DNA from: a virus
DNA: 32,534 bases
IMG/VR virus record: IMGVR_UViG_3300035510_000237
Strand: one strand, 5' to 3'
Under the pieces are notes generated by a model. The model made no database searches. It was not told the DNA's origin and saw only the letters and a list, made by a program, of their open reading frames with translations. Shown one piece after another: positions 887-31,811 of the stretch. The first letter of the stretch is position 1, and each line of letters begins with the position of its first letter. The translations under genes were made by a program, and so were the position numbers.

Positions 887-918
887 AAGGGGTAGAGTAA
901 TCTGCCCCTTATTTTTAT
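887..918 (+). terminator. rho-independent terminator
   Basis: 10-bp stem AAGGGGTAGA/TCTGCCCCTT with one G-U pair and a GTAA loop, followed by ATTTTTAT. Confidence 0.7.
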
Positions 919-924
919 AAAACC

Positions 925-1914
925 ATGTTTATTATTTATATTTTAATTGGTCTAATTGTTGGCGCAATTGCTGCATATTTAATTATTAGGCCAAAATTAA
1001 AAACTACTCAAGTGGCAGACCAAGAAACCGCTAATAAAAATCAAGAACTTTTAAATAAAAACAAAGAATTATCTAAAGAATTAAATTAGCGACAAGAAGA
1101 ATTAACTTCTTTAAATCAGTAGATTTATATTCTTGACGATAAAAAAATTAGATATACAGAAGAATTACAAAACCAAATAGACCAAAGTAAAGAGATTGCT
1201 AAAACTATTTATGACCAAGATTTAAAACTTGCTAAGAATCAACTTGAAAAAGATAAAGAGCAATTAAAAAAAGATTATTAGCAAGCTTCACAAGAATTTT
1301 CAGAAGCTTATTTAGAATCATTAAATGATTCCGCTAAATATTTTACTACTACTATTACCAGCAAAAAAGAAACTCTTGATGCTTTAGAGGAGTAGATTGC
1401 TCAATATAATAAAGATATGTCTGCAATGGTTGAAGCTAATAAAAGAGCAGAAGAAATATCTTAGCAATCAAATTTTTATCGTTTAAATCTTTCTGATGAA
1501 GATATTGAAGAAATTAAAAAGTTGCGTTCTATTATTCCTTATTTAAGGAACCCAGAAGCTTTAAATAAAGTAATTTGGAAAACATATTATGAAAAGCCTT
1601 ATTCAGATTTAGTTGGCCGAGTAATTGGAACCGGAGTTCATACTGGAATTTATAAAATCACAAACCTAGAAAACGGAATGTGTTATGTAGGCTAGAGCGT
1701 AAATTTGATAGAACGTTGGCGGCAACACATTAAACGAGGTATTGGCGCAGAAACGCCAACCCGCAATAAATTATATCCAGCCATGTTAGCTATTGGAGTT
1801 GAAAATTTCACTTTTGAAGTTATTGAGGAATGTAGTAAAGATTAGCTGGATGAACGAGAAGATTATTGGCAAAACTATTTCCACTCAAATGAGTTTGGAT
1901 ACAGCATTAAATAA
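925..1914 (+). CDS. membrane-anchored coiled-coil protein with C-terminal GIY-YIG nuclease domain (329 aa, 8 TAG)
   Basis: The N-terminus MFIIYILIGLIVGAIAAYLIIRP is a transmembrane helix. About 200 aa of K/E/Q-rich coiled coil follows. The C-terminus GIYKITNLENGMCYVG(TAG)SVNLIERWRQH...NFTFEVIEE is a GIY-YIG domain. TAG occupies the conserved Gln of YIGQS. The stop is TAA at 1912-1914. Confidence 0.65.
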
Positions 1915-2220: not shown

Positions 2221-2586
2221 TTGGAATTTAGAAATATTAGAACTTTTAATTGGGAAAATGCGCTGAGGGGAATGCGCAATCCTAAAGAGTCATATGATAG
2301 AATTGACAGCTAGTATGGTATTGCGCCTTATGATGCTTATGAGGATGTCGTAAATACTTTTATCTAGGAATTAGAGCCTGACGCAGAATATTCAGAAGAA
2401 TTTTATCAGAATAGTATTATTCACGAAGGTATTCTTGGGGATGATTCTTATATTGAATATGCTATGATTGGCCCTAAAGACATGAAGCTGGCGCAGACTC
2501 TTATTAAGGCTGGCCCAGAGCATCGTAAATTTCTACGTTAGATTTTCGTGAGTGTAGATATTACCGCTCCGTTATACTGGTATTAA
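2221..2586 (+). CDS. Thy1/ThyX-like (flavin-dependent thymidylate synthase-like) protein, exon 1 (3 TAG)
   Basis: TTG start after GAGGAG. Reads ...IKAGPEHRKFLRQIFVSVDITAPLYWY, which resembles the ThyX segment ...GHE-P-EH-F-F-V-APIF-. It ends in TAA at 2584-2586, directly before the intron-like sequence. Confidence 0.45.
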
Positions 2587-2899
2587 GGAGAAATTCTTTC
2601 TGCCAATGAAATACTTTTCCTAGTTATCGCTAGGGGTTGCGGATTTCCAATTTTTTGGTAAAACGCAGCTAACGGGGAACCACCCATTGGAATCCCGTGG
2701 GAAACTAATTGAATGATTAGAACCTGTAGAGACTATTCCCTAAGCCTTATGGGCAGGGAAGTAGGGCTACTATTGATACGTAGTTATGTTTTAGGAAACG
2801 AAGCATATGAAAATCGAAATGGTATCCTTCACAAGAAGTAAAAGATAGTCCACAAATGGGAAAGAATTTGATACCTACAAAGTCGGCACTGTCGCTAAC
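2587..2899 (+). mobile_element. ORF-less group I intron (approximate bounds) splitting the thyX-like gene
   Basis: A GC-richer non-coding insert. The core R-like element GTAGAGACTAT (GACTAT at 2731-2736) and the S-like element AAGATAGTCC (ATAGTC at 2845-2850) can pair as P7. Short hairpins are present, for example CCCA...TGGG at 2688-2706. Confidence 0.5.
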
Positions 2900-3340
2900 T
2901 CAACCTCCACCATGCACAAGATTCAGAGTAAGCCCATTACTATTGATTGTTTTGAGATTGATGATTATACACCACTTACTACAACTCTTCCATATGGAGA
3001 AAATCAGACAATCGAAGCAAATGTTTTTGAGGGTATTACAATTCCTTATCTTGAGGCTCTTCGTAATAATTATAATGAAACCAAAGATAAGAGAATCTGG
3101 AAGGAGCTTATTAGAGCGCTCCCTGAATCTTGGCTTCAAACTCGAACTGTTACTATGAATTATGAAAATCTTCTTAGTATGTGTTCAAAGAGTCAACGTA
3201 GATTCCATAAGCTAACTGAATGGTCTGGCGATAGCGAAGATTTCGTTACACCTAGTTTTATTAAATTTGCGCGCAGTCTGCCCTATGCGCAAGAGTTCAT
3301 TTTTATTGATGAAGGGCAACAAGAACCAGTAAATGAATGA
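2900..3340 (+). CDS. Thy1/ThyX-like protein, exon 2 (5' boundary approximate)
   Basis: Reads ...WKELIRALPESWLQTRTVTMNYENLLSMCSKSQRRFHKLTEW, which matches the ThyX C-terminal pattern R-x-LP-x4-TR-x3-T-x-N-x3-L-x6-R-x3-H-x3-E. TGA stop at 3338-3340. No canonical RHR(X)7S motif was located. Confidence 0.45.
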   Translation, partial: STSTMHKIQSKPITIDCFEIDDYTPLTTTLPYGENQTIEANVFEGITIPYLEALRNNYNETKDKRIWKELIRALPESWLQTRTVTMNYENLLSMCSKSQRRFHKLTEWSGDSEDFVTPSFIKFARSLPYAQEFIFIDEGQQEPVNE

Positions 3341-6640: not shown

Positions 6641-6661
6641 CTGGCTTCAAAATATGTTGAT

Positions 6662-7912
6662 GTGACCAGTATAATTCAGGTAATTGGTTGTGTATTTAAT
6701 ACACCACAACTTTTGGATTATACTGATAAGTATACAATTATAGATGAAGATTTCCCCAATTCATTCCATAAAATTGTATTTGGGGCAATTTATAAACTCC
6801 ATGAATTAGGGTCAGAAAAAATTACGCTAGAAACAGTTTCAGATTTCTTATCTTCTCGCCCAAAAAGCTATGCCATTTATCAAAAAGAAAAAGGCGAAGA
6901 ATGGTTAATGAATGCGTCAACTGCCGCAGTTGAGTTATCTTTTGATTATTATTATCATAGAATGAAGAAAATGACTTTGCTTCGAGCTTATGATAATTGC
7001 GGTATTGATGTCAGTGATATTTATGACCCAGACAATATTTTAGATACAAAAAAGAAACAGCAACAAGAAGATTATTTAGATAATTCTTCACTTGACCAGA
7101 TTGCTGATAAAATTGATGAAAAGATTAGTTCTATACGACTCCAATATGTTGATGACGCTTATGGAGAAGCATATCAAGCAGGTGATGGAATTATGGAGTT
7201 AATTGATAAATTTAAAGAAGCTCCAGAAGTAGGTATTCCATTATATGGTCAGTTAATTAATACGGTTACGCGAGGCGCAAGATTAAAAAAGTTTTATCTT
7301 CAATCTGCGGCCAGTGGTGTTGGTAAGACTCGTAGCATGATTGCGAATGCTTGTTTTATTGCTTGTGATAAGATTTATGATGAATCATTCGGATGGATAA
7401 AGAATGGGACAAAAGAGCCTACTTTATTCATTACAACAGAGCAGGAACTTGAAGAAATTCAAACTATGATGTTAGCTTTTCTTTCAAATGTAAATGAGGA
7501 ACATATCTTAAATGGTTCTTATGAGGGCAATGAAGAAGAAAGAGTGCGGGAGGCCGCAATTTATCTTTCAGAAAGTCCTTTATATATTGAAGAACTTCCT
7601 GATTTTTCATTAAAGGATGTTGAAGATAGAATAAAGAAGAATATAAGAGATCATGATGTAAAGTATGTGTTTCATGACTACATTCATACCAGCCTCAAGA
7701 TTCTCGAAGAGATAACTCGTCGCAGTGGTGGAATTAAACTCCGAGAGGATAATGTCTTGTTTATGCTATCTACAAGGCTTAAAGATATGTGTAATAAATA
7801 CGGTATCTTTATTATGTCCGCAACTCAGTTAAATGCGGACTATCAAGAATCTAAAACTCCTGACCAAAATCTACTTCGTGGTGCAAAAAGTATTGCTGAT
7901 TGGACAAAGTAA
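6662..7912 (+). CDS. dnaB: DnaB-like replicative helicase, exon 1 (start codon uncertain: GTG at 6662 or earlier)
   Basis: A DnaB N-domain pattern is followed by Walker A SAASGVGKT and ...IMSATQLNADYQESKTPDQNLLRGAKSIADW. That last segment aligns to the DnaB motif SQLNRSLEQR...SDLRESGSIEQDAD. The ORF then stops in TAA at 7910-7912, at the point where the intron begins. Confidence 0.8.
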   Translation: MTSIIQVIGCVFNTPQLLDYTDKYTIIDEDFPNSFHKIVFGAIYKLHELGSEKITLETVSDFLSSRPKSYAIYQKEKGEEWLMNASTAAVELSFDYYYHRMKKMTLLRAYDNCGIDVSDIYDPDNILDTKKKQQQEDYLDNSSLDQIADKIDEKISSIRLQYVDDAYGEAYQAGDGIMELIDKFKEAPEVGIPLYGQLINTVTRGARLKKFYLQSAASGVGKTRSMIANACFIACDKIYDESFGWIKNGTKEPTLFITTEQELEEIQTMMLAFLSNVNEEHILNGSYEGNEEERVREAAIYLSESPLYIEELPDFSLKDVEDRIKKNIRDHDVKYVFHDYIHTSLKILEEITRRSGGIKLREDNVLFMLSTRLKDMCNKYGIFIMSATQLNADYQESKTPDQNLLRGAKSIADWTK

Positions 7913-9075
7913 TTGAATAATTTACTATCAATTTTTATATAGATTAAGGGATAAAGCGAAAATCTATATAAGGAGCGATAAATATGAAAAAAATAGAATT
8001 AACACAAGAACAAATAAGCCAAATATTAAACTTATATAAGAATAATTACTCTCAACAAAAGATTGCTAATATTTTAGAGGTATCTAGGCCTGTTATAAAA
8101 AGAGTTCTTACCGAGAACGAGGTTCTGTTAAGAGAAAGAACTCATAAATATAAAGCAGATTATGATATTTTTGAAAATATAGATACTCCAGAAAAAGCTT
8201 ATTGGTTAGGTTTTATAGCAGCAGATGGTTGTAATTATTAGAGAGAGAATAATTCTTCAATAATCATTTCTATAAACTAGAAAGATATTGACCATTTAGA
8301 GAAATTTAAAAAATTTGTAAATACTAATGCTGAAATAAAACTTTTTGAGCAAGATATGGGGTATTCAAATAAGACCTAGATGTGCAAAATAGTTTTAAAT
8401 AGTAAAAAAATGAGTAATGATTTATATGATAAAGGTATAGTGCCTAATAAAAGTTTAATATTAGATATTCCAAAAATAGATGAAAAATATTATTATCCAT
8501 TTATTCTAGGATATTTTGATGGTGATGGTTCTATAAGTAAAACTAATTGTTATAATAATTATTGTATTAGCTTTCAAGGAACTAAAGAAATTTTAAATTG
8601 GATAAATAATTTATTTGAAATTTCAAAATTGGATAAAAGATAGAAAGAAAGTTCTAAGAATAGTTATTATATTAGGTGTGGTGGAACTAATAAACCATAT
8701 AATATATTAAAATAGCTTTATGATTCTTGTGAAGTTCATTTAGATAGAAAATATAAATTATTTAAAGCTTTGGAAACAGTCGTCCTTAGTAGAAATACTA
8801 AGTGATTATTAGACCGAGAATTGCTGGAAAACCCTTAGAGCTAATTAAACTACAACGTAAATATGAAATAAAATTAAGCGTGAATGTTTGAAAATTAATT
8901 AGATTGGGTAATCAGCAGCCGAGCCTTGAAGAGAGGAAGGTTCAACGACTATCTGGTAGCGCAGAGTAGCAGAAATGCGAAGTACGGTCTACCTAAACTC
9001 TTAATAAAAGAGCAGGGTAAAGATATAGTCTACTCCTTTATGAAAATAAAGGTATTAAGGAAAATTGATTATGGT
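7903..9075 (+). mobile_element. group I intron (approximate bounds) in dnaB, carrying a LAGLIDADG homing endonuclease ORF
   Basis: The core R element GGTTCAACGACTATC (GACTAT at 8947-8952) and the S element AAGATATAGTC (ATAGTC at 9025-9030) match the IA-type consensus. A P9-like hairpin CCTTTA...TAAAGG lies at 9036-9053. A 10-bp hairpin at 7936-7970 sits just before the endonuclease RBS. Confidence 0.6.
7984..8805 (+). CDS. LAGLIDADG homing endonuclease with N-terminal HTH (273 aa, 5 TAG)
   Basis: RBS AAGGAG, ATG at 7984. Two LAGLIDADG motifs, LGFIAADGC and ILGYFDGDGS. TGA stop at 8803-8805. Internal TAGs at 8239, 8278, 8380, 8641 and 8713. Confidence 0.75.
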
Positions 9076-9339
9076 AGTATTTTACTTCTTGTTAAAGATG
9101 AAGATTTGGAAGCTCTTGAACCAGTTTTGTCGGCAAATGTCTTTGACAAACCAACAATTAAAATGTCTGTTTATAAAAATAGACGAGGTAAATATAAGGG
9201 TGTTTATTTATGGTGTAGAGCTGATTTGGGAACCTGTAGAATAAATCCTATGTTTTGTACCACCTGGGATTATGAAGTAATAAATGTAAATAATATTCGT
9301 ATTATTGTCGATGGTGACAATGAACAAAATTGGAATTAA
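9076..9339 (+). CDS. dnaB: DnaB-like helicase, exon 2 (5' boundary approximate)
   Basis: Reads ...SILLLVKDEDLEA...KNRRGKYKGVYLWCRADLGTCR, which aligns to the DnaB C-terminus ...DADIVAFLYRDDYY...KQRNGPVGTV-L-F. TAA stop at 9337-9339. The track ORF beginning at TTG 8926 is intron sequence read in the same frame. Confidence 0.6.
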   Translation, partial: SILLLVKDEDLEALEPVLSANVFDKPTIKMSVYKNRRGKYKGVYLWCRADLGTCRINPMFCTTWDYEVINVNNIRIIVDGDNEQNWN

Positions 9340-9353
9340 GGAGAAACTAATTT

Positions 9354-9545
9354 ATGAATATGCTTGATTTTAAAAGACCTATTGAATATAAGATGCCCAA
9401 TGCTATTGCTGTAGGATATTTGAAGGCTAATAAGGCAATGAAGTCTAAAGACCCAAATCATGCTAAGTCTCAGGAATATCTTTGTAAGATTGTGAATGAG
9501 GAATTTGGAATTAGAGGAAATTGCGTTAAAGTAATTACTTTTTAA
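9354..9545 (+). CDS. hypothetical protein (63 aa)
   Basis: RBS AAGGAG 7 nt upstream of ATG. No TAG. Confidence 0.4.
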   Translation: MNMLDFKRPIEYKMPNAIAVGYLKANKAMKSKDPNHAKSQEYLCKIVNEEFGIRGNCVKVITF

Positions 9546-9546
9546 T

Positions 9547-10647
9547 ATGCTGTCTTTTGATAAAGATGAAATTAAGGAGCAGTTGGATATAGCCGATATA
9601 TTCCAACTGCTTTTTGATTTCGGGGGAAATCCCAAGTATACAGATTTTGGAATTATTTCTCAGACCATCTGCCATAATAAGCCAGGAGAAGGAAGTTATA
9701 AACTTTATTACTATGAAAATAGTCAAGCTTTTTATTGCTATACCGATTGTGGATTTTTGGATATTTACACTCTTGTAATTAAAGTCGCAGGTATTCAATT
9801 CAATAAAAACTATAATTTAAATGATGCCATTAGGTGGGTAGCAAATAGATTTAATATTAGTGGTAGTTATGAAAGTGAAGCTAGTGAACAATTAGAAGAT
9901 TGGGTTTATTTAGAAAATTATAAAAGGATTGAAGAAATAAATCCAACTTCAAATGAGCAGATCACCTTAAAAGAATATAACAATAAAATTTTATCTCGAT
10001 TAAATTATAATGTTAATATTACACCTTGGTTAAATGAAGGAATTACTCAAGAAGTCTTAGACTTGGCTATGATTGGTTTTTACCCTGGAGGCGACCAGAT
10101 AACGATTCCGCATTTTGATAAAGATAATCGTTTTATAGGTTTGCGCGGCCGTACACTATCTCTTGAAGATGCTGAAAAATATGGGAAATATCGACCCGTT
10201 AAAGTAGGAAAACAACAATTCAATCATCCTCTTGGAATGAATCTTTATGGTTATAACTGGAATAAAGACAATATCCGAAAAATGAAAAAAGTTATTGTTT
10301 TTGAATCTGAAAAATCGGTTTTAAAATATGCTTCTTATTTTGGATGGCAAAATAATATTTCAGTTGCGTGTTGTGGCAGTAATATATCTTCTTATCAAAT
10401 GCGACTATTATTCGATTTAGATGTCGAAGAAGTAATTGTTGCTTTTGATAAGCAGTACCAAGAGTTAAACACTGACGAAAGTAAACAATGGAAAAATAAA
10501 CTTTTAAAGATTTATAATAAATATCACCAATATTGCAATATTTCTTTTATGTGGGATAAAGGTCATTTACTTGGTTATAAAGATTCTCCAATTGACGATG
10601 GAAAAGAAATTTTTCTGGAGCTATTTAAAGAAAGGGTTATATTATAA
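9547..10647 (+). CDS. dnaG: DnaG-like DNA primase (zinc-binding plus TOPRIM domains; 366 aa)
   Basis: Zinc-ribbon motif CHNKPGEGSYKLYYYENSQAFYCYTDCG and TOPRIM-like segment VIVFESEKSVLKYASYFG...VACCGSNIS...EVIVAFDKQ. Confidence 0.7.
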   Translation: MLSFDKDEIKEQLDIADIFQLLFDFGGNPKYTDFGIISQTICHNKPGEGSYKLYYYENSQAFYCYTDCGFLDIYTLVIKVAGIQFNKNYNLNDAIRWVANRFNISGSYESEASEQLEDWVYLENYKRIEEINPTSNEQITLKEYNNKILSRLNYNVNITPWLNEGITQEVLDLAMIGFYPGGDQITIPHFDKDNRFIGLRGRTLSLEDAEKYGKYRPVKVGKQQFNHPLGMNLYGYNWNKDNIRKMKKVIVFESEKSVLKYASYFGWQNNISVACCGSNISSYQMRLLFDLDVEEVIVAFDKQYQELNTDESKQWKNKLLKIYNKYHQYCNISFMWDKGHLLGYKDSPIDDGKEIFLELFKERVIL

Positions 10648-12991: not shown

Positions 12992-13111
12992 TACGCAGCA
13001 GCTTATCCGCGCGCGCTTGGCCCAGCCTTCCGAAACCACAAATTAAAATGGGTTTTAGAATTTTTCGAGCAAAAAGTTCAAAAAAGCTTTTTTACTATAA
13101 GAAGAAACTAA

Positions 13112-13164: not shown

Positions 13165-13389
13165 ATGAATTTTAAAGATACTTATAAGGAACTTGATAGT
13201 CTCATAAAGCGTTGTAGGGGTTATGGATATGATAGTCTTTGCCTAAGATATAAAATTGCGCGAGAAGGCCAGGCTCGTTATGAGGCTCATAATGTTTATT
13301 CAGATTTAGAACAGTCTATGAAGGCGGCAAAACGTGATGAATTAAAATTTTATCAGCTTTTAGATGAACTCATTGGAGAACATGATTAA
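13165..13389 (+). CDS. hypothetical protein (74 aa)
   Basis: RBS AAAGGAAA, ATG at 13165. No TAG. Confidence 0.45.
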   Translation: MNFKDTYKELDSLIKRCRGYGYDSLCLRYKIAREGQARYEAHNVYSDLEQSMKAAKRDELKFYQLLDELIGEHD

Positions 13390-13410: not shown

Positions 13411-14594
13411 TTGACTCTTACTAATAAGCAAGAAGAGGGTTTGAAAGAAATCGTAGCCAGACACAGACGGGGAGAGAAATATACTGTAGTGTCTGGCTAC
13501 GCCTGACTGGAACAGGTAAAAGTACTCTTGTTAAATTTGCTATTGAAGCTTTGGATGTTGCTAGAGATCGAGTAGCATATGCGACATTTACTGGTAAGGC
13601 CGCAGAGGTTCTACGAAAGAAGGGTAATGAAGGAGCTATTACACTTCATAGATTGCTTTATGAGCATTATCCTAGACCAGGCGGAGGCTTTTTTAGAAAG
13701 AAACGTCGTTTTCTTGACTATGACATCATAATCGTAGATGAGGTATCTATGGTTCCAAAATCCATGATTGATTTGCTTTTAACTTATAAAGTATATATAA
13801 TCTTTCTTGGTGACCCCTTTCAGCTGCCACAAATTGACAAAGATGAAAAGCATGACCTTCTTGAACATCCTCATATCTTTCTTGATGAAGTAATGCGCCA
13901 GGCTGCAGAATCAGAGATTATTCGAGCGACTATGAAGATTAGAAATATGGAGACTTTACCTTTCCAAAAAGGTCAAGAGATGCAAATTCTTTCTATGTCC
14001 GATTTAGTTGATGGATGTTACCTTTGGGCGGACCAAATTATTACAGGCACAAATATTACTCGCCGCAAAATAAATGATTGTGTTCGCAGACTAAAGGGGT
14101 TTAATGGAAATCCGCAAGAAGGAGAAAAAATCATCTGCCTTCAGAATTATTGGGAAACATTATCTGACAATGGTGATGCCTTAGTAAATGGCACAACTGG
14201 TATCCTTCATAATCCTCAAGAGTTTATTCAAGATATTCCTTATTATATTCCTTCTGAAAAACATGAAGTAGAGGTTATATTAGGTAACTTTAAAACTGAA
14301 GATGGCTGTGACTTTTGGGTCGATATGGATAAAGAAATGATTACTACTGGAGAATTTTCTTTGGATTGGCGTGCTACCTATTAGCTAGGTAAACGAAAGG
14401 CACAACTTGGTGATATAGTGCCTAAGAAGTTTGATTATGGTTATGCCATAACAGCTCATAAATCACAAGGTTCTGAATGGTTAAAAGTCTTAGTTGTTGA
14501 AGAAAAATTTCCTTTTGATAAGCTGGAGCATGCACGCTGGCTTTATACAGCGGCTACTCGTGCTAGTGAAAAGTTAGTTATTGTTCGGAATTAA
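13411..14594 (+). CDS. RecD/Dda-like SF1B helicase (AAA_30-type), interrupted by a frame shift inside Walker A (-1/+2) plus 1 TAG; possible pseudogene or sequencing error
   Basis: RBS AGGAGG and TTG at 13411 give MTLTNKQEEGLKEIVARHRRGEKYTVVSGYA, then TGA at 13504. The other frame continues L-TGTGKSTLVKFAI...IIIVDEVSMV. After the TAG at 14382 it reads ...AITAHKSQGSEW...YTAATRASEKLVIV (helicase motifs V and VI). TAA stop at 14592-14594. Confidence 0.6.
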
Positions 14595-20620: not shown

Positions 20621-20630
20621 TTGTTTTATC

Positions 20631-20659
20631 TCAAAACACAAAATATAGTAGACGACTTA
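20631..20659 (+). promoter_or_regulatory. possible promoter (TTGTTT-17-TATAGT)
   Basis: Weak match upstream of nrdD. Confidence 0.25.
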
Positions 20660-20689
20660 AAACAAAACACAAGATGGAGGTATCTATAT

Positions 20690-22918
20690 ATGGCTAAAAT
20701 CATTAAACGTGATGGTTCATTGGCTACTTTTGATAAAGATAAAATCATAAATGCTATTAACAAAGCATTTATCGAAATAGATGGAACTTTATATGAAACT
20801 GATACTGCAAAAGATATTGCCGCAGATATTGAAGATAAGGTCTTAGAAAGTTCTGCAACTATAACAGTTGAAACTATTTAGGATTGGGTAGAAGATTATT
20901 TAATGGCTTCCGATAGAAAAGATGTCGCAAGGTCTTATATTCGTTATCGTTATAAGAAAGAAGTTGTAAGAAATCTTCATAGTGATTTCTTTGATGCTAT
21001 TGGAGAAAAACTTTCAGCTAGTAATGTCCAAAATCAGAATGCTAATGTAGATGAACAATCTTTCGGCGGGCGCATTGGAGAAGCCGCAAGTGTAATGACA
21101 AAGAATTATGCTTTGACTCAAATAGTTTCTGAAATGGCTAGAAAGAACCATGAAAATAATGAAATTTATATTCATGACTTGGATAGTTATGCTGTCGGTA
21201 TGCACAATTGTTTGTCAATTCCTTTTGATGATTTGCTCGCCAAAGGATTTAATACCAGACAAACAGATGTGCGGCCAGCCAATAGCGTAAATACAGCTTT
21301 CCAACTTGTTGCAGTTATTTTCCAGCTTCAATCTCTTCAGCAGTTCGGCGGCGTGAGTGCTACTCATATTGATTGGACTATGGTCCCATATGTAAGAAAG
21401 AGCTTTTATAAACATTATGCTAATGGTTTAAAGTATTGTGAACATCAAGAAAAATATATTGATGGATTTACGAGCGAAATGTCAATACATGATAGTGCGT
21501 ATTATGAATATAGCCCATTGGCATATGACTACGCCATGGATATGACAGTTAAAGAAATCTATCAAGCAGTTGAAGGTATGTATCATAACCTCAATACTCT
21601 TCAAAGCAGAAGTGGCAATCAGTTGCCTTTTACTTCTATTAACTATGGTACGTGCACTTTGCCAGAAGGTAGGATGATAACTAAGGCTCTTCTTGAAGTC
21701 TCTCTTGAAGGACTTGGAAAGCTTCATAAAACTTCTATTTTTCCATGTGGAATTTTTCAATGTATGAAAGGTGTAAACCGCGCACCTGGCGACCCTAATT
21801 ATGACTTATATCAGCTAGCATTAAAATCTACAGCACAAAGATTATACCCTAATTACGCGAATGTTGATTGGAGCGGTAATGCTGGCTATGATATTAACGA
21901 TCCTAGAACATACTTCTCAACGATGGGTTGTAGGACCGCCAATGGCTGGGATATTAACGGTTTTGGCCAGCTTAAAGACGGTAGAGGCAATATTTGCCCA
22001 GTTACTATTATTATGCCAACGTTGGCTATGGAGGCAAAAGAAATGGCTTCTAATAGTGATTTTCAAGTTGAGCCTGAAAAAGCTATAATTCGTTCTTTTA
22101 TGACTTTACTTGATGCAAAAATCTGTGAAGCTAAGGATATGCTTCTGGAGCGTTTTAACTGGATTTGCGCGCAAGACCCCTCTAGTGCAAAGTTTATGTA
22201 TGAGAACAATGTAATGGCTGGTTATGTTCCTGAAGAAGGAATTAAAAGCGCGCTAAAACATGGCACTTTAGCAATTGGACAACTTGGTTTGGCTGAGACA
22301 CTTCAGATTCTTGTCGGCTGTGACCATACAGAAGCAAAAGGCATGGAATTAGCTAAGACGATTGAACAGCTATTCAAGGATAGATGTGCTCAGTTTAAAG
22401 AAGAATATCATTTAAATTTTGGTGTATATTATACCCCAGCAGAAAATTTATGCCATACGGCTTTAAAGAAATTTAAAAATAAATATGGTGTAATTGAAAA
22501 CGTATCTGATAAAGATTTCTTTACTAATAGTATTCATGTTCCTGTATGGAAGGAAGTTAGTCCTTTTGATAAAATTGATATTGAAAGTCAACTAACTGGA
22601 TATAGTTCTGCGGGCTGTATTACTTATGTTGAGCTAGATACAAGTGTAAAGAAAAATTTAGAGGGACTTGAAACCATTGTTAATTATGCTATGGACCATG
22701 ATATACCATACTTCGCTGTAAATACAATTAATGACACTTGTTTAACGTGCGGATATACAGATGAAATAAATGATGTCTGTCCTATCTGTGGAGGAACAAA
22801 AATTCAACAATTACGTAGAGTGACTGGATATTTGACAGGTTCGTATAAAGATGCTTTTAACAAAGGTAAGATCCAAGAAACCGAAATGCGAGTTAAACAT
22901 ACTGGGAGACTCGAATAA
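20690..22918 (+). CDS. nrdD: anaerobic ribonucleoside-triphosphate reductase (class III RNR; 742 aa, 1 TAG)
   Basis: N-terminal ATP-cone MAKIIKRDGSLATFDKDKIINAINKA. C-terminal zinc ribbon CLTCGYTDEINDVCPICGG and glycyl-radical motif RRVTGYL. The TAG at 20879-20881 fuses the track ORFs. The ATG at 20690 follows GGAGG. Confidence 0.85.
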
Positions 22919-23604
22919 TGGGTGTTATATATAAATATGAAAATAATATCAACCATCATATTTATATTGGGCAAAGTGTAAATTTAAAAAAGAGGATTAG
23001 AGAACACAAATGCGCGTTCTCTAATCCTAATAACCCAGATTACGACTTCCCAATTCATCGAGCATTAAGAAAATATGGAGTTGAAAATTTTACTATTTCT
23101 ATCTTAGAAGAAGTAGAAGATAACGCACTTGATGAAAGAGAAGTATATTGGATTGCTTATTATGATTCATACAAAAATGGATATAATGCCACCCCTGGAG
23201 GACAAAACGGAGGAAGCTATAATGGGAAAGAAGTTTGTTTATATGATTTAAATGGTAACTTTGTAAGAAGTTATAAAAATGCTAAAACAGCTTGTGAAGC
23301 AATAAAAGTTTCTTATTCTACAATTTAGCAAGTTTTACATCAAAAAAGACCGACCTGCAAAGGCTATTAGATAAAATATAGAGATGATAATAGAGAGATA
23401 AAAAAGTTTAAATCTCGTCAAGGAGGCGCTATACCTATTTATTAGTTAGAAAAAAATACTAATAATATAATTAAAGAATGGGATAGCGCACAATAGGCCG
23501 CTAGGGAATTAAACTTAGACGCTTCTACCATTACAAAATGTTTAAAAGGTAAATTAAAAAGTCATGGCGGTTATAGTTGGAAATATAAGGAGGAATAGAA
23601 ATGA
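22918..23604 (+). CDS. free-standing GIY-YIG homing endonuclease (I-TevI-like) with C-terminal NUMOD/HTH region (228 aa, 5 TAG)
   Basis: GVIYKYENNINHHIYIGQSVNLKKRIREH reads YIGQS with Gln as CAA. C-terminus ...LNLDASTITKCLKGKLKSHGGYSWKY. The start overlaps the nrdD stop (TAATGG) and its TGA overlaps the nrdG ATG. Confidence 0.75.
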
Positions 23605-24080
23605 GATACGCGGGAATTATATATAACGACTTGGCCGCTGCCCCTGGAATATGTGTAACTTTTTTTACTCAAGGATGTAACCGGCATTGTTTAAATTGCC
23701 ACAATCCTGAGACTTGGGATTTCTTTGGTGGGAAAGAGTTCAGTTATGAAACAATAGCTGATATAAAGCAAGCTCTTCGAGCAAATGGAGTTAAAAGAAA
23801 CTTAGCCATTATGGGCGGAGAACCTTTATGCGAAGATAATTTGTTTTTAACGAACCTCGTTATAGAATCAGTGAAAAAAGATTTGCCCGACACGAAAGTC
23901 TATATTTGGACAGGATATACTTATGAAGAATTAATTTTAGAGGAAGGCTCTAGTTCTCTTTTAAATAATATTTTAAGTAATACAGATTGCCTAATTGATG
24001 GGCCATATATTGATAGCGAGAGAGATATTACATTGCATATGCGAGGCTCTCGTAATCAAAGAATTCTTTATAAAGGTTAG
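23601..24080 (+). CDS. nrdG: anaerobic RNR activating protein (radical-SAM)
   Basis: Reads GICVTFFTQGCNRHCLNCHNPETW and an ...IMGGEPL motif. Confidence 0.8.
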   Translation: MRYAGIIYNDLAAAPGICVTFFTQGCNRHCLNCHNPETWDFFGGKEFSYETIADIKQALRANGVKRNLAIMGGEPLCEDNLFLTNLVIESVKKDLPDTKVYIWTGYTYEELILEEGSSSLLNNILSNTDCLIDGPYIDSERDITLHMRGSRNQRILYKG

Positions 24081-24089
24081 GATTTTTAA

Positions 24090-25782: not shown

Positions 25783-26208
25783 TTGAATATTAAGCTTTTA
25801 ACAGATACGGCTAAAGTCCCTTATCGTGGGTCTGCGGCCGCAGCTGGTTACGATATTTATGCAGATGAAACTATTATGATTCTTCCTGGTGAGGTATCTA
25901 AAGTTCATACAGGAATTGCTACTGAACTTCCTGAAGGAACATTTGCAGGCATTTATCCTAGAAGTGGCCTTGCTACTAAGAACGGTCTGCGGTTGGCTAA
26001 TTGCGTGGCTGTTATTGACTCAGATTATCGTGGCGAATGGCTAGTTCCAATTTATAATGATTCTAGTTCTCCTCAGATTATTTCTAAGGGCGACCGCATT
26101 GCGCAGATGGTTATTCATAAATATGAGACTGTTGACTTTAATGTTGTTGATAAATTAAACGATACTATTAGGGGTGCTGGTGGTTTTAATTCCACTGGGA
26201 TAAGATGA
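25783..26208 (+). CDS. dut: dUTP diphosphatase
   Basis: All five dUTPase motifs are present: AGYDIYA, RSGLA, VIDSDYRGEW, RIAQMV and RGAGGFNSTG. Confidence 0.85.
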   Translation: MNIKLLTDTAKVPYRGSAAAAGYDIYADETIMILPGEVSKVHTGIATELPEGTFAGIYPRSGLATKNGLRLANCVAVIDSDYRGEWLVPIYNDSSSPQIISKGDRIAQMVIHKYETVDFNVVDKLNDTIRGAGGFNSTGIR

Positions 26209-26696
26209 TAAAACTTTTAGCCCTTGACTAGGCTTCAAATGTTTCAGGTTGGGCTGTTTTTGAAGATGGAAAATTATTGGAAAGCGGCACCTTTACCGCT
26301 AAAGGAAAGGACCTTGGCGAACGTCTTTATGATATTCGCCAAAAGGTCTCCAACCTTATTTCTAAATATAATATCAATTATTTAATTTTTGAAGATATTT
26401 AGCTTTAGGGAAATGTAACCGGTAATGTCCAAACTTTTAAAGCCTTGGCAGAAGTATTTGGAATTATTTATGAATTGGCCACTGAATTAAATATTCCCAA
26501 CGAGGCAGTATTAGCTAGCTCTTGGAAATCTACTCTTGGCATTAAAGGCCGATAGAGAGCGGAACAAAAGCGAAATGCGCAAAAGTACGTCCTGGAAAAT
26601 TATGGCAAAAAGGTATCTCAAGATGAATCAGATAGTATTTGTATTGGCACACACTATTTCCTAAAGCAATAGAAAGTCTTTGACTGGTCGGATTAA
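26205..26696 (+). CDS. ruvC: RuvC-like Holliday-junction resolvase (163 aa, 5 TAG)
   Basis: Reads MIKLLALD(TAG)ASNVSGWAVFEDGKLLESG and DESDSICIGTHYF, with the catalytic Asp/Glu pattern of RuvC/YqgF-fold resolvases. It overlaps the dut stop. Confidence 0.65.
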
Positions 26697-30223: not shown

Positions 30224-30252
30224 TTGCATTATGATGAAAAAAATGATATAAT
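30224..30252 (+). promoter_or_regulatory. sigma70 promoter (TTGCAT-17-TGaTATAAT)
   Basis: TTGCAT at 30224-30229 and TATAAT at 30247-30252, upstream of the DGR target gene. Confidence 0.5.
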
Positions 30253-30284
30253 ATTTATAGAAATTAAGAAAGGAGGAACGTATT

Positions 30285-31811
30285 ATTTCAAACAAAGTAA
30301 TTTTACTTGAATAGGGTGGAATTAACACCAATGCAGTTACTTTATCAGGCATTACTGTCTCAACATTACCGACTAAAACAGTATATGAATACGGTGATTC
30401 TTTTGACCCTACTGGCATGGTAATTACTGCGACTTATACTGATGGTACTACTGCAATAGTATCTAATTATATTTATACACCAACTTCTGTTTTAAATACA
30501 ATAGGAAGTTAGGCAGTCCTTATATCTTATAGCGAAAACGGATTAACTTATCTTAATAGTGTAACAATTACAGTAAACCGTAAAAAAATTTCTATACCTA
30601 CTTGGAAATCAAATTTAACTTATAATGGTAATACCTAGCATGTAGATGCTGAACAATATTGGAATAATTATGATTCTAGTAAAATGGTTATTAGTGGAAC
30701 TACATCTGGCACAAATGCTAGTACGTATTCCGCTTCATTTACACCAGGAAGTAATTATTAGTGGTCTGACGAAACAACTTCTGCAAAATCTGTAAATTGG
30801 ACTATTAATAAGGCTACTGGATATTTATATATAAATGGAAGTGTCAGTAGCCCAACAGTAAGTTTAGATTCTAGTAATTCTAGTTACTCTGCTACCATAA
30901 CAGGTTCAGGTACTATTAGTTATACACCTACTTCAGTGACTGGATTAACTTTAAGTCTTAGCAATGGGACTTTCACTGTTAAAGCTACAGCTAATGTTTC
31001 CTCACAAATTATTACCATTAAATGCGCGGCAAGTACCAATTATACAGCCCCTGCAAATTTAACTATTACAGTTAGCGCAAATGTTTGGTCATGGGGAGAT
31101 GAAACTGCAGTAGGCGACGCTGACTGGTGGGCTAGACTAAAGTCTTGGGCTTCTACAGCTTCTGCCACAGAAAGATCTGATTGCGTTGGTAAGAAAAAAT
31201 TAGTCAGCTTATCTACCTCAGTGCTTGGCGCTAATGCGGCTACAATGATATGTATTGGAGCTGACTAGGATGGGTCAAATACTTTAACCTTTTAGACTGC
31301 TGGAGTATTGCCCAATACAACTGCTTTTAGCTCTTCTAGTGCCGTTTGGATAGGTTCTACTGCTAGAACTTTATGTTAGAATTTCTATAATTATTGTAGT
31401 GCAAAAAATTCAATAAAAACTATTAGTAAAGGCACTTGCGCATCTACTAATAGTTCTAAAAGTGGCACAGCAACTTATAATGATGAAACAGTTTTTTTAC
31501 CATCAGAGGCTGAAATGGGTTTAGATTCTTATTCTAGCTTGACTTATAGTAATTCTACTACAAGTAACGCCGAATGTACTAAAGGATTAAAATTTAAATA
31601 TAGTTATTATAGTTCTAATACTACAAGAATTAAATATGTTATGAGCGCAGATGGTACAATTGGTTCAACAGCTGGTTATTATTGGGAGAGGTCGCGTTAC
31701 TACAACTCGGGCAACTCGAACATTGTTTGCCATGTCTACGGTGATGGATCTGCGGTCAACTCCGGCTACTACAACAGCTGTTACTTGGCCCCCGCTTTCG
31801 CCATCGGCTAA
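30285..31811 (+). CDS. DGR target (variable) protein: bacterial Ig-like domain plus Ser/Thr-rich region plus C-terminal variable repeat; putative receptor-binding tail fibre (508 aa, 7 TAG; apparent ATT start)
   Basis: GGAGGA at 30272-30277 is followed by ATT ATT, and no in-frame ATG/GTG/TTG occurs upstream. An Ig-like domain VTLSGITVSTLPTKTVYEYGDSFDPTGMVITATYTDGTT follows. Seven TAGs interrupt the frame, and the gene ends at TAA 31809-31811. The last 36 codons are the VR. Confidence 0.7.
31690..31798 (+). repeat. DGR variable repeat (VR)
   Basis: 109 nt. 92 of 109 positions are identical to the TR at 32392-32500. All 17 mismatches lie opposite TR adenines. The 3' end TTACTTGGCCCCCG is shared with the TR (IMH-like). 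Confidence 0.85.

What the first reader, a model, noticed from the sequence alone, without database searches (positions are those of the whole stretch)
2221..3340. ThyX-like gene interrupted by a short ORF-less group I intron; canonical RHR(X)7S motif not found
Exon 1 (...IKAGPEHRKFLRQIFVSVDITAPLYWY then TAA) and the downstream ORF (...LIRALPESWLQTRTVTMNYENLLSMCSKSQRRFHKLTEW...) both match the Thy1/ThyX pattern. They are separated by about 310 nt of GC-richer non-coding sequence. That sequence carries P7-forming elements GAGACTAT (2729-2736) and AAGATAGTCC (2841-2850), as in the dnaB intron. Thymidylate synthase genes are classic phage intron sites. ThyX's RHR(X)7S should lie right at the exon junction and I could not reconstruct it in any frame. 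Either the splice sites differ from my guess or this is a divergent Thy1-fold enzyme, for example one involved in nucleotide or DNA modification.
Basis: partly seen in the sequence, partly recalled or inferred. Interest (0 to 1): 0.6.

Follow-up and report, generated by a model that had tools for sequence, protein, structure and literature searches.

The report
Self-splicing intron in ThyX-fold phage gene
A phage gene for an uncharacterised protein with the fold of the flavin thymidylate synthase ThyX is split by a 277-base, ORF-less group I intron of the T4 td type; the intron is an ordinary mobile element, and the protein family, which lacks ThyX's catalytic motif in all members examined, is the more interesting part.

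The parts
2221..2581 (+). Exon 1 of the ThyX-fold gene. It starts at TTG, with GAGGAG 8 nt upstream, and ends with T2581, the first base of Trp codon 121.
   Evidence: (profile positions 10-83).
2311..2313 (+). In-frame TAG no. 1, read as a sense codon (Gln).
   Evidence: The aligned column is variable.
2365..2367 (+). In-frame TAG no. 2, read as a sense codon.
   Evidence: The aligned column is variable.
2539..2541 (+). In-frame TAG no. 3, read as a sense codon.
   Evidence: It aligns with Gln in 44 of 45 homologues. L001 keeps TAG at this position.
2582..2858 (+). Group I intron, 277 nt, with no ORF. An in-frame TAA follows the 5' splice site at 2584-86.
   Evidence: It is precisely absent from L001. 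Core pairings were verified and covary.
2591..2605 (+). Internal guide sequence. Bases 2591-2601 pair with the first 11 nt of exon 2 (P10). Bases 2602-2605 (GCCA) pair with exon 1 UGGU 2578-2581 (P1, with a U2581.G2602 wobble at the splice site).
   Evidence: Most relatives have a 6-bp P1, AUUGGU/GCCAAU.
2611..2615 (+). P3 5' strand (AUACU). It pairs with 2821-2825.
   Evidence: 100% paired, with 2-3 pairs changed on both sides.
2619..2669 (+). Two hairpins between P3 and J3/4: 2619-2634 and 2636-2669. T4 td has no counterpart to them.
   Evidence: four pairs in each hairpin changed on both sides. Comparison with td.
2673..2697 (+). P4 (CGGGG/UCCCG) enclosing a short P5. UAACGGGGAACC and AAUCCCGUG are shared with T4 td.
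   Evidence: P4 never varies, so covariation says nothing about it.
2699..2725 (+). P6 (GGG/CCU) and the P6a hairpin 2705-2720. This is where many relatives carry their ORF.
2729..2736 (+). P7 5' strand, G[A]GACUAU, with bulged A2730 next to the G2731-C2850 pair (the expected guanosine-binding site).
   Evidence: The outer pair covaries as G-C/U-A/C-G.
2737..2807 (+). Peripheral helices: P7.1 (2737-2759), P7.2 (2767-2783) and an extra hairpin (2785-2807) with the conserved 15-nt loop UUUUAGGAAACGAAG.
2821..2838 (+). P3 3' strand (2821-2825) followed by the P8 hairpin (2827-2838).
2845..2858 (+). P7 3' strand AUAGUCC (2845-2851), then a 7-nt tail ACAAAUG ending in the terminal G2858. There is no P9.
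2859..3340 (+). Exon 2. G2859 and G2860 complete Trp121. The stop codon is TGA at 3338-3340.
   Evidence: (profile positions 84-215).

Best explanation
A mobile group I intron of the T4 td type sits inside the most conserved block of a phage gene (...DITAPLYW|WKEFDTYKVGTVANSTSTMH...).

**Splicing (inferred).** After transcription the RNA folds into the group I core. One guide sequence (2591-2605) holds the end of exon 1 through P1, with the U2581.G2602 wobble, and the start of exon 2 through an 11-bp P10. An exogenous guanosine bound at the G2731-C2850 / bulged-A2730 site in P7 attacks after U2581. The freed exon 1 then attacks after the terminal G2858. This restores a TGG codon and an mRNA for a 280-residue protein.

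**This copy.** It has no homing-endonuclease ORF. Relatives at the same site carry GIY-YIG or other ORFs in the P6 or P8 loop.

**Translation.** The mRNA also needs TAG to be read as Gln, because the phage is TAG-recoded.

**The protein.** It belongs to a large uncharacterised phage family with a ThyX-like fold. The family lacks ThyX's RHR and R90 arginines but keeps residues that align with N85, S88, R174 and H178. It is therefore most likely a pyrimidine-nucleotide-binding protein of the replication module, and not a canonical FAD-dependent thymidylate synthase.

**Shown versus inferred.** Shown: the exact insertion, the structure with covariation, the presence/absence polymorphism, the fold and the recoding. 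Inferred: self-splicing chemistry and the protein's activity.
For: **Junction.**
- The intron-less allele L001 differs by exactly 2582-2858, with no target-site duplication.
- Uninterrupted homologues of 60-66% identity read YWWKEF.
- The PHROG profile abuts at positions 83/84.

**Structure.**
- All listed pairs are canonical.
- Fourteen related introns from several genes: 98.9% of cells paired against 37-45% when partners are slid; 20 pairs changed on both sides; 0 of 500 shuffles reach the covariation score.
- Nineteen introns at this same site: 99.4% against 40-46%, with 23 such pairs.
- Core motifs are shared with T4 td and with an intron of Enterococcus phage EF1 that carries a GIY-YIG-like ORF.

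**Mobility.** Sixty-three viral contigs have an intron at the same site and at least 120 have the uninterrupted junction. Intron lengths run from 262 to 2277 nt, with GIY-YIG or other ORFs.

**Protein.**
- The AlphaFold model has pLDDT 81.8.
- The Foldseek top 50 are all ThyX or PolB.
- Thy1 is the only recurrent Pfam hit, in 18 of 85 family members, all sub-threshold.
- The window protein keeps every invariant residue of the alignment of 46 close homologues.

**Recoding.** TAG aligns with Gln in 44 of 45 homologues of this gene, and in 120 of 120 homologues at three RuvC positions.
Against: - No RNA data exist, so splicing is inferred.
- Rfam RF00028 gives no hit even at E<=10.
- The intron lacks P2 and P9, and its P1 in this window is only 4 bp plus a C.A mismatch. 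Efficient splicing may therefore need a protein helper.
- P4 and most of P7 never vary, so they are untested by covariation.
- The alignments used for pair counting were built from stem segments I cut out by fixed anchors. The loops were trimmed.
- L001 could in principle be a spliced transcript and not an intron-less genome; the sample type is unknown.
- The ThyX relationship rests on one predicted structure of a 66%-identical homologue, with low TM-scores (0.29-0.37).
- Sequence-profile evidence is not significant.
Confidence: 0.9

Rival explanations
1. The gene is a canonical ThyX, and the RHR(X)7S motif reappears once the true splice sites are used.
For: The intron does sit where ThyX has its RHR motif in the colinear hhalign alignment.
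Against: - The junction is fixed by an intron-less allele and gives YWWKEFDTYKVGTVANSTSTMH.
- More than 100 uninterrupted homologues have the same block and no RHR.
- Pfam Thy1 is below threshold.
Confidence: 0.01
2. The insert is a dead or non-splicing remnant, and the gene, with its TAG 'stops', is a pseudogene.
For: - There are three in-frame TAGs.
- The intron has no ORF, no P2 and no P9, and P1 is weak.
- Rfam is silent.
Against: - TAG is a sense codon across the window.
- Every core pair is intact.
- Relatives at the same site keep the same P9-less design through compensatory changes.
- The protein keeps all family-invariant residues.
- The only stop in the exon 1 frame lies inside the intron.
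Confidence: 0.04
3. It is a true group I intron but not autonomous. Having lost P2 and P9, it needs a phage or host protein (a maturase or chaperone) to splice.
For: - No P9 or P2 is present, where td and the EF1-type relatives have P9.
- P1 in this window has only 4 contiguous pairs.
Against: - An 11-bp P10 and extra covarying peripheral hairpins could compensate.
- Four independent ORF-less copies exist.
- No tool here can test this.
Confidence: 0.15
4. The protein is unrelated to ThyX. The fold match is convergence or an artefact of the model.
For: - hhalign probability is below 1%.
- HMM searches of PDB sequences give no hit.
- Foldseek TM-scores are 0.29-0.37, with rmsd about 14 A.
Against: - In BFVD, phage ThyX proteins come straight after family members.
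- Thy1 is the only Pfam family hit repeatedly.
- The hhalign alignment is colinear over 149 columns and lines up N85, S88, R174 and H178.
Confidence: 0.12

Closest known systems
T4 td intron (group IA, in the thymidylate synthase ThyA gene; carries I-TevI)
   Same: - Shared core strings in the same order: UAA(A)CGGGGAACC, AAUCCCGUG, GACUAU, AGUAGGG, CGAAA and AUAGUC.
- P7.1 and P7.2 lie between P7 and the 3' strand of P3.
- The ORF site is in the P6 loop in relatives.
- It is inserted in a highly conserved block of a phage gene.
   Different: - No P2 between P1 and P3.
- Two hairpins between P3 and P4.
- An extra hairpin with a conserved 15-nt loop after P7.2.
- No P9, P9.1 or P9.2.
- No ORF in this copy.
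- The host gene has a ThyX-like fold and is unrelated to ThyA.
- RF00028 scores td at 40 bits and this intron not at all.
Intron carrying a GIY-YIG-like ORF beside the DNA polymerase III alpha gene of Enterococcus phages EF1/EF5, with related IMG/VR introns (L002, L007, L008, L012, L014)
   Same: - 84-87% identity over the P7-P7.2 region.
- The same hairpins between P3 and P4, and the same conserved loop.
- Covarying P3, P6 and P7.
   Different: Those introns sit in other genes, have a P9 hairpin and carry ORFs.
Flavin-dependent thymidylate synthase ThyX (PF02511; PDB 3ah5, 5chp, 1o26) and its paralogue PolB
   Different: - RHR becomes T-Y-K, R90 becomes M, Y91 becomes H and R165 becomes E.
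- No significant sequence or profile match.
- About 60 residues longer.
- Activity unknown.
TAG-recoded (code 15) gut phages of Firmicutes and Bacteroidetes (Borges et al., bioRxiv 10.1101/2021.08.26.457843)
   Same: In-frame TAG aligns with Gln, and homing-endonuclease ORFs are rich in the recoded codon.
   Different: Here several replication-module genes also carry TAG, and no suppressor tRNA lies in the window.

Membership tests
Group I intron | The 5' exon ends in U, which forms a U.G wobble with the guide sequence in P1. | tested here: met
   U2581.G2602, with UGGU/GCCA. Most relatives have a 6-bp version.
Group I intron | The intron ends in G, and P10 between the guide sequence and the 3' exon lies directly 5' of the P1 strand. 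| tested here: met
   G2858 is the last base. An 11-bp P10 pairs 2591-2601 with 2859-2869.
Group I intron | Conserved core: the P3/P7 pseudoknot with P4-P6 and P3-P8 in the canonical order. | tested here: met
   P3, P6, P8 and the outer P7 pair covary. P4 and the inner part of P7 are invariant.
Group I intron | Guanosine-binding site: a G-C pair in P7 next to a bulged nucleotide. | tested here: met
   G2731-C2850 lies next to bulged A2730. The bulge is kept as A or C in relatives. Sequence evidence only.
Group I intron | P9 and P2 peripheral helices. These are usual but not universal. | tested here: not met
   Only 7 nt lie between P7 and the terminal G, and no hairpin lies between P1 and P3.
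Group I intron | Match to the curated model Rfam RF00028. | tested here: not met
   No hit at the gathering threshold or at E<=10. The control, T4 td, scores 40.3 bits against a threshold of 50.
Group I intron | GTP-dependent self-splicing. | not testable with these tools
   This needs an in vitro transcript or RNA-seq.
Subgroup IA (td-like) | P7.1 and P7.2 inserted between P7 and the 3' strand of P3, with td-like P and Q motifs. | tested here: met
   The T4T record annotates td as a 'group 1A intron'.
ThyX / Thy1 (PF02511) flavin-dependent thymidylate synthase | Pfam gathering score. | tested here: not met
   The spliced protein gives no hit, and exon 2 gives E=0.1 at 12.8 bits against a cut-off of 24.8. 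Of 85 relatives, 18 hit Thy1, none better than E=3.1e-4.
ThyX / Thy1 (PF02511) flavin-dependent thymidylate synthase | The RHR(X)7S motif. | tested here: not met
   The family-wide block is KEFDTYKVGTVANSTSTMH. Only the Ser is kept.
ThyX / Thy1 (PF02511) flavin-dependent thymidylate synthase | Profile-level homology. | tested here: not met
   hhalign probability 0.8%, E=0.07. HMM searches of PDB sequences find nothing.
ThyX / Thy1 (PF02511) flavin-dependent thymidylate synthase | ThyX fold. | tested here: met
ThyX / Thy1 (PF02511) flavin-dependent thymidylate synthase | FAD binding and dUMP methylation. | not testable with these tools
   Biochemistry is needed.
TAG->Gln recoded phage (code 15) | In-frame TAG at conserved Gln positions, and a gain in coding density when TAG is read through. 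| tested here: met
TAG->Gln recoded phage (code 15) | Suppressor tRNA(CUA). | tested here: not met
   No tRNA lies in the 32.5-kb window. The rest of the genome was not seen.

The most novel reading that the evidence does not exclude
The host protein may represent a large, unstudied offshoot of the ThyX fold: 3,604 clusters at 50% identity, fixed in the SPbeta-like replication module of 140-180 kb Firmicutes phages. It has swapped the flavin- and phosphate-binding arginines (RHR, R90, R165) for D/T/Y/K/M/E, while keeping the counterparts of S88, R174 and H178. On this reading it performs chemistry other than dTMP synthesis, for example making or recognising a modified pyrimidine for phage DNA. 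Separately, the intron may be a distinct architectural subclass of IA introns: no P2 or P9, a two-hairpin insertion between P3 and P4, a conserved 15-nt loop, and a long P10 that may replace P9.
Probability: 0.25. Interest if true: 0.7.

Novelty: new member of a known kind. Interest (0 to 1): 0.4.

Why it matters
- **Annotation.** Standard gene callers break this gene into fragments, because of the TAG codons and the intron. Rfam does not flag the intron. The database 'protein' P0003 is an example: it starts at a GTG just after a TAG. The exact junction and a covariation-backed structure give a template for finding this intron family, which occurs at this site in at least 63 viral contigs and also in other phage genes.
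- **Biology.** The intron marks the most conserved block of a very large uncharacterised phage protein family that has the ThyX fold without the ThyX motif. A published review (PMC5954106, read) calls the origin of ThyX 'elusive'. A widespread divergent branch is therefore a concrete target for biochemistry.
- **Recoding.** The window also shows TAG recoding reaching into replication-module genes, not only late genes.

Tried and rejected
- **Rfam.** No group I hit at the gathering threshold on the window, at E<=10 on 2450-3000, on the EF1 locus or on three ORF-less relatives. The td control is itself below threshold.
- **Protein family and structure libraries.** Pfam, NCBIfam and PADLOC give nothing significant on the spliced protein. 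HMM searches of PDB sequences with two alignments give only noise.
- **hhalign.** Comparison with T. maritima ThyX and with a 35-sequence ThyX alignment was not significant.
- The afdb50 library was unavailable.
- **Alignment and folding.** Plain MAFFT alignments of the introns misplace the variable hairpins, so I cut stems out by fixed anchors before counting pairs. The minimum-free-energy fold pairs the two exons' flanks and misses the pseudoknot.
- **Alternative P3.** I considered pairing UUUCC (2616-2620) with GGAAA in the 15-nt loop. The variable fourth base (U/G/A) does not covary, so this pairing is left as an untested tertiary contact.
- **Literature.** Searches for helices between P3 and P4, for P9-less introns and for ThyX-like paralogues in phages found nothing relevant.
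- **Whole-window search.** Megablast of 25 kb against deposited phages matched only the intron core.
- **Not cited.** My per-gene TAG/CAA/CAG table has two genes in the wrong frame, so I do not use it.

Full report
**1. What is in the sequence**

The window is AT-rich (33.8% GC) phage DNA. Its ORFs are broken by in-frame TAG. Reading TAG through raises the summed length of long ORFs from 24 to 36 kb and yields an almost continuous gene array. ARAGORN finds no tRNA in the window.

The target gene starts at TTG 2221 behind a GAGGAG and runs to TAA 2584-86. It has TAG at 2311, 2365 and 2539. The second half runs in another frame to TGA 3338-40.

**2. The gene is split, and where**

- The conceptually joined protein hits PHROG phrog_6721 (function unknown) at 7.7e-49. 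Exon 1 covers profile positions 10-83 and exon 2 covers 84-215, an exact abutment.
- The large protein collection holds thousands of uninterrupted homologues. The best full-length ones are 245-301 aa and 57-66% identical. All 18 that I aligned read APLYW(W/F)KEFDTYK, where the window's exon 1 frame gives ...APLYWY then a stop.
- P0003 is a 164-aa JGI protein, 99% identical, that starts VSVDITAPLYWWKEFD. Its contig L001 reads TTATACTGGT|GGAAAGAATTTGATACC.
- The window therefore carries exactly 277 extra bases, 2582-2858, with no target-site duplication. Trp121 is T2581 + G2859 G2860.
- GC content is only slightly higher in the intron, 39.4% against 37.5% in the exons.

**3. It is a group I intron**

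Exon 1 ends in U and the insert ends in G. One guide sequence pairs with both exons:
- GCCA 2602-05 pairs with UGGU 2578-81 (P1, with a U.G wobble at the splice site).
- 2591-2601 pairs with the first 11 nt of exon 2 (P10).

blastn of the insert finds only an intron-like element beside the DNA polymerase III alpha gene of Enterococcus phages EF1/EF5, which carries a GIY-YIG-like ORF, and Lak megaphages. A scan of viral contigs with the P7.2 string returned 17 loci, and these loci supplied the compensatory changes.

I cut the stems out by fixed anchors and counted pairs.

| Set | Cells paired | Paired when 3' partners slid 1-3 columns | Pairs changed on both sides | Shuffles (of 500) reaching the covariation score |
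|---|---|---|---|---|
| 14 introns from several genes | 98.9% | 37-45% | 20 | 0 |
| 19 distinct introns at this same site | 99.4% | 40-46% | 23 | 0 |

The helices supported are the long-range P3, P6, P8, P7.1, P7.2, the outer P7 pair across a bulged base (G-C/U-A/C-G), two hairpins between P3 and P4, and an extra hairpin with an invariant 15-nt loop. P4 and the inner part of P7 never vary. P3 and P7 cross, which is the group I pseudoknot.

The strings UAACGGGGAACC, AAUCCCGUG, GACUAU, AGUAGGG, CGAAA and AUAGUC occur in the same order as in the T4 td intron, which I fetched and compared.

Differences from td:
- No P2.
- Two hairpins between the 5' strand of P3 and J3/4.
- One extra hairpin after P7.2.
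- Only ACAAAUG after P7, so no P9.

Relatives in other genes do have P9.

Rfam RF00028 finds nothing. It also scores td itself at 40.3 bits against a threshold of 50, so this silence weighs little.

**4. It is a mobile, polymorphic element**

- In IMG/VR, 63 contigs have ...GAUAGUCNNNNAAUG|GGAARGARTTYGAYAC.
- Forty-five complete introns at this site range from 262 to 2277 nt.
- Four have no ORF: this window plus L196, L163 and L199.
- Others carry a GIY-YIG endonuclease, a nuclease-like ORF with two TAGs, or a crAss001_48-like ORF, placed in the P6 or the P8 loop.
- Most relatives have exon UAUUGGU and therefore a 6-bp P1. The window has UACUGGU, which gives a C.A mismatch.

**5. The host protein**

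At sequence level there is no significant link to ThyX:
- Pfam Thy1 does not hit the spliced protein or exon 1, and gives E=0.1 on exon 2.
- NCBIfam and PADLOC give nothing.
- HMM searches of PDB sequences give nothing.
- hhalign against a 35-sequence ThyX alignment gives probability 0.8%.
- Thy1 is nevertheless the only Pfam family hit repeatedly by family members, in 18 of 85, with a best E of 3.1e-4.

At fold level the link holds:
- An AlphaFold model of a 66%-identical homologue has pLDDT 81.8.
- Its Foldseek top 50 are all ThyX family.
- In BFVD, phage ThyX proteins follow straight after family members.

The colinear hhalign alignment (not itself significant) maps ThyX residues onto the family as follows:

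| ThyX residue(s) | Aligned residue(s) in this family |
|---|---|
| RHR | T-Y-K |
| N85 | N |
| S88 | S |
| R90 | M |
| Y91 | H |
| R165 | E |
| R174 | R |
| H178 | H |

RHR(X)7S is thus absent from every homologue aligned here, not lost through a wrong junction. The protein has the ThyX fold but fails every sequence criterion for membership.

The family is large, with 3,604 clusters at 50% identity. It sits in a conserved SPbeta-like replication module, in this gene order:
- a GIY-YIG protein;
- sometimes a small ORF;
- this gene;
- a winged-helix protein;
- YorF;
- AAA_24;
- YorH;
- DnaB;
- two or three ORFs with no Pfam domain (the window's 9535-10647 looks primase-like);
- DHH/RecJ;
- a helicase;
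- Pol III alpha.

**6. Recoding**

The third TAG of exon 1 aligns with Gln in 44 of 45 homologues. In the window's RuvC, three TAGs align with Gln in 120 of 120 homologues, and two near-identical database proteins have Q at all five TAG positions. TAG->Gln recoding in gut phages, including TAG- or TGA-rich homing-endonuclease genes, is published.

**7. Verdict**

The intron interpretation is right. The 'ThyX' label holds only at fold level. Both the intron and the recoding belong to known kinds. The uncharacterised ThyX-fold family and the P2/P9-less intron architecture are the parts that deserve experiments.

Noticed in passing
whole window; e.g. 26190-26696 (RuvC), 7972-8805, 22897-23604, 30252-31811: The phage reads TAG as Gln. 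Many ORFs carry 1-8 in-frame TAGs, including replication-module genes, and homing-endonuclease ORFs are especially rich in them. No tRNA of any kind, and so no suppressor, lies in the window.
   Followed up: yes
window 7901-9060: A second group I intron splits dnaB. Homologue residues 3-422 map to 6644-7900 and residues 423-505 map to 9061-9309. The intron follows U7900 and ends in G9060. It carries a LAGLIDADG ORF (7972-8805, five TAGs), the R element GUUCAACGACUAUC (8941-54) and the S element AAGAUAUAGUC (9020-30), and it has a P9, unlike the intron studied here.
   Followed up: partly
window 13411-14594: The RecD-like helicase changes frame inside its Walker A motif. Homologue residues 1-31 match frame 1 (13411-13503) and residues 31-389 match frame 3 (13506-14588). 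Five extra bases, TGACT, or a -1 shift, separate ...SGYA from GTGKST. This could be a sequencing error, a pseudogene or a programmed shift.
   Followed up: partly
window 22897-23604: A GIY-YIG endonuclease ORF with five TAGs is wedged between nrdD (20621-22918) and nrdG (23589-24089). It is either a free-standing homing endonuclease or part of another mobile element.
   Followed up: no
window 12993-13040: A strikingly GC-rich stretch (ACGCAGCAGCTTATCCGCGCGCGCTTGGCCCAGCCTTCCGAAACCAC) lies in an otherwise AT-rich intergenic gap of about 420 nt. The gap also holds a 74-codon ORF (13166-13388).
   Followed up: no
window 2584-2590 and 2606-2716: The P1 loop contains TAAGGAG, which is the in-frame TAA followed by a Shine-Dalgarno-like AGGAG. 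It is followed by an ATG that opens a 36-codon ORF if TAG is read as Gln. The AUUAAG(G)AG insertion is shared with L015 and L163 but absent from most relatives.
   Followed up: no
window 2789-2803 and all related loci (L002-L019, L143-L199): The 15-nt loop UUUUAGGAAACGAAG is almost invariant across introns in different genes. This suggests a tertiary contact or a protein-binding site. A possible pairing with UUUCC (2616-2620) shows no covariation.
   Followed up: partly
L146, L154, L198, L177: In these relatives a second copy of the intron's 5' part (…CTTTCTGCCAATGAAA…) follows a …CCACAAAT string inside the intron. This looks like tandem or nested intron pieces.
   Followed up: no
window 901-1914 and L020-L022: The gene upstream of the ThyX-fold gene, separated from it in some genomes by a short ORF (1928-2215 here), encodes a transmembrane, coiled-coil and C-terminal GIY-YIG protein (seven TAGs here). 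Its position is conserved in distant relatives, so it is probably not a homing endonuclease.
   Followed up: partly
L200 (T4 td locus): Rfam RF00028 scores the classical T4 td intron at only 40.3 bits, below its gathering score of 50. Phage IA introns are therefore systematically missed by gathering-threshold scans.
   Followed up: yes
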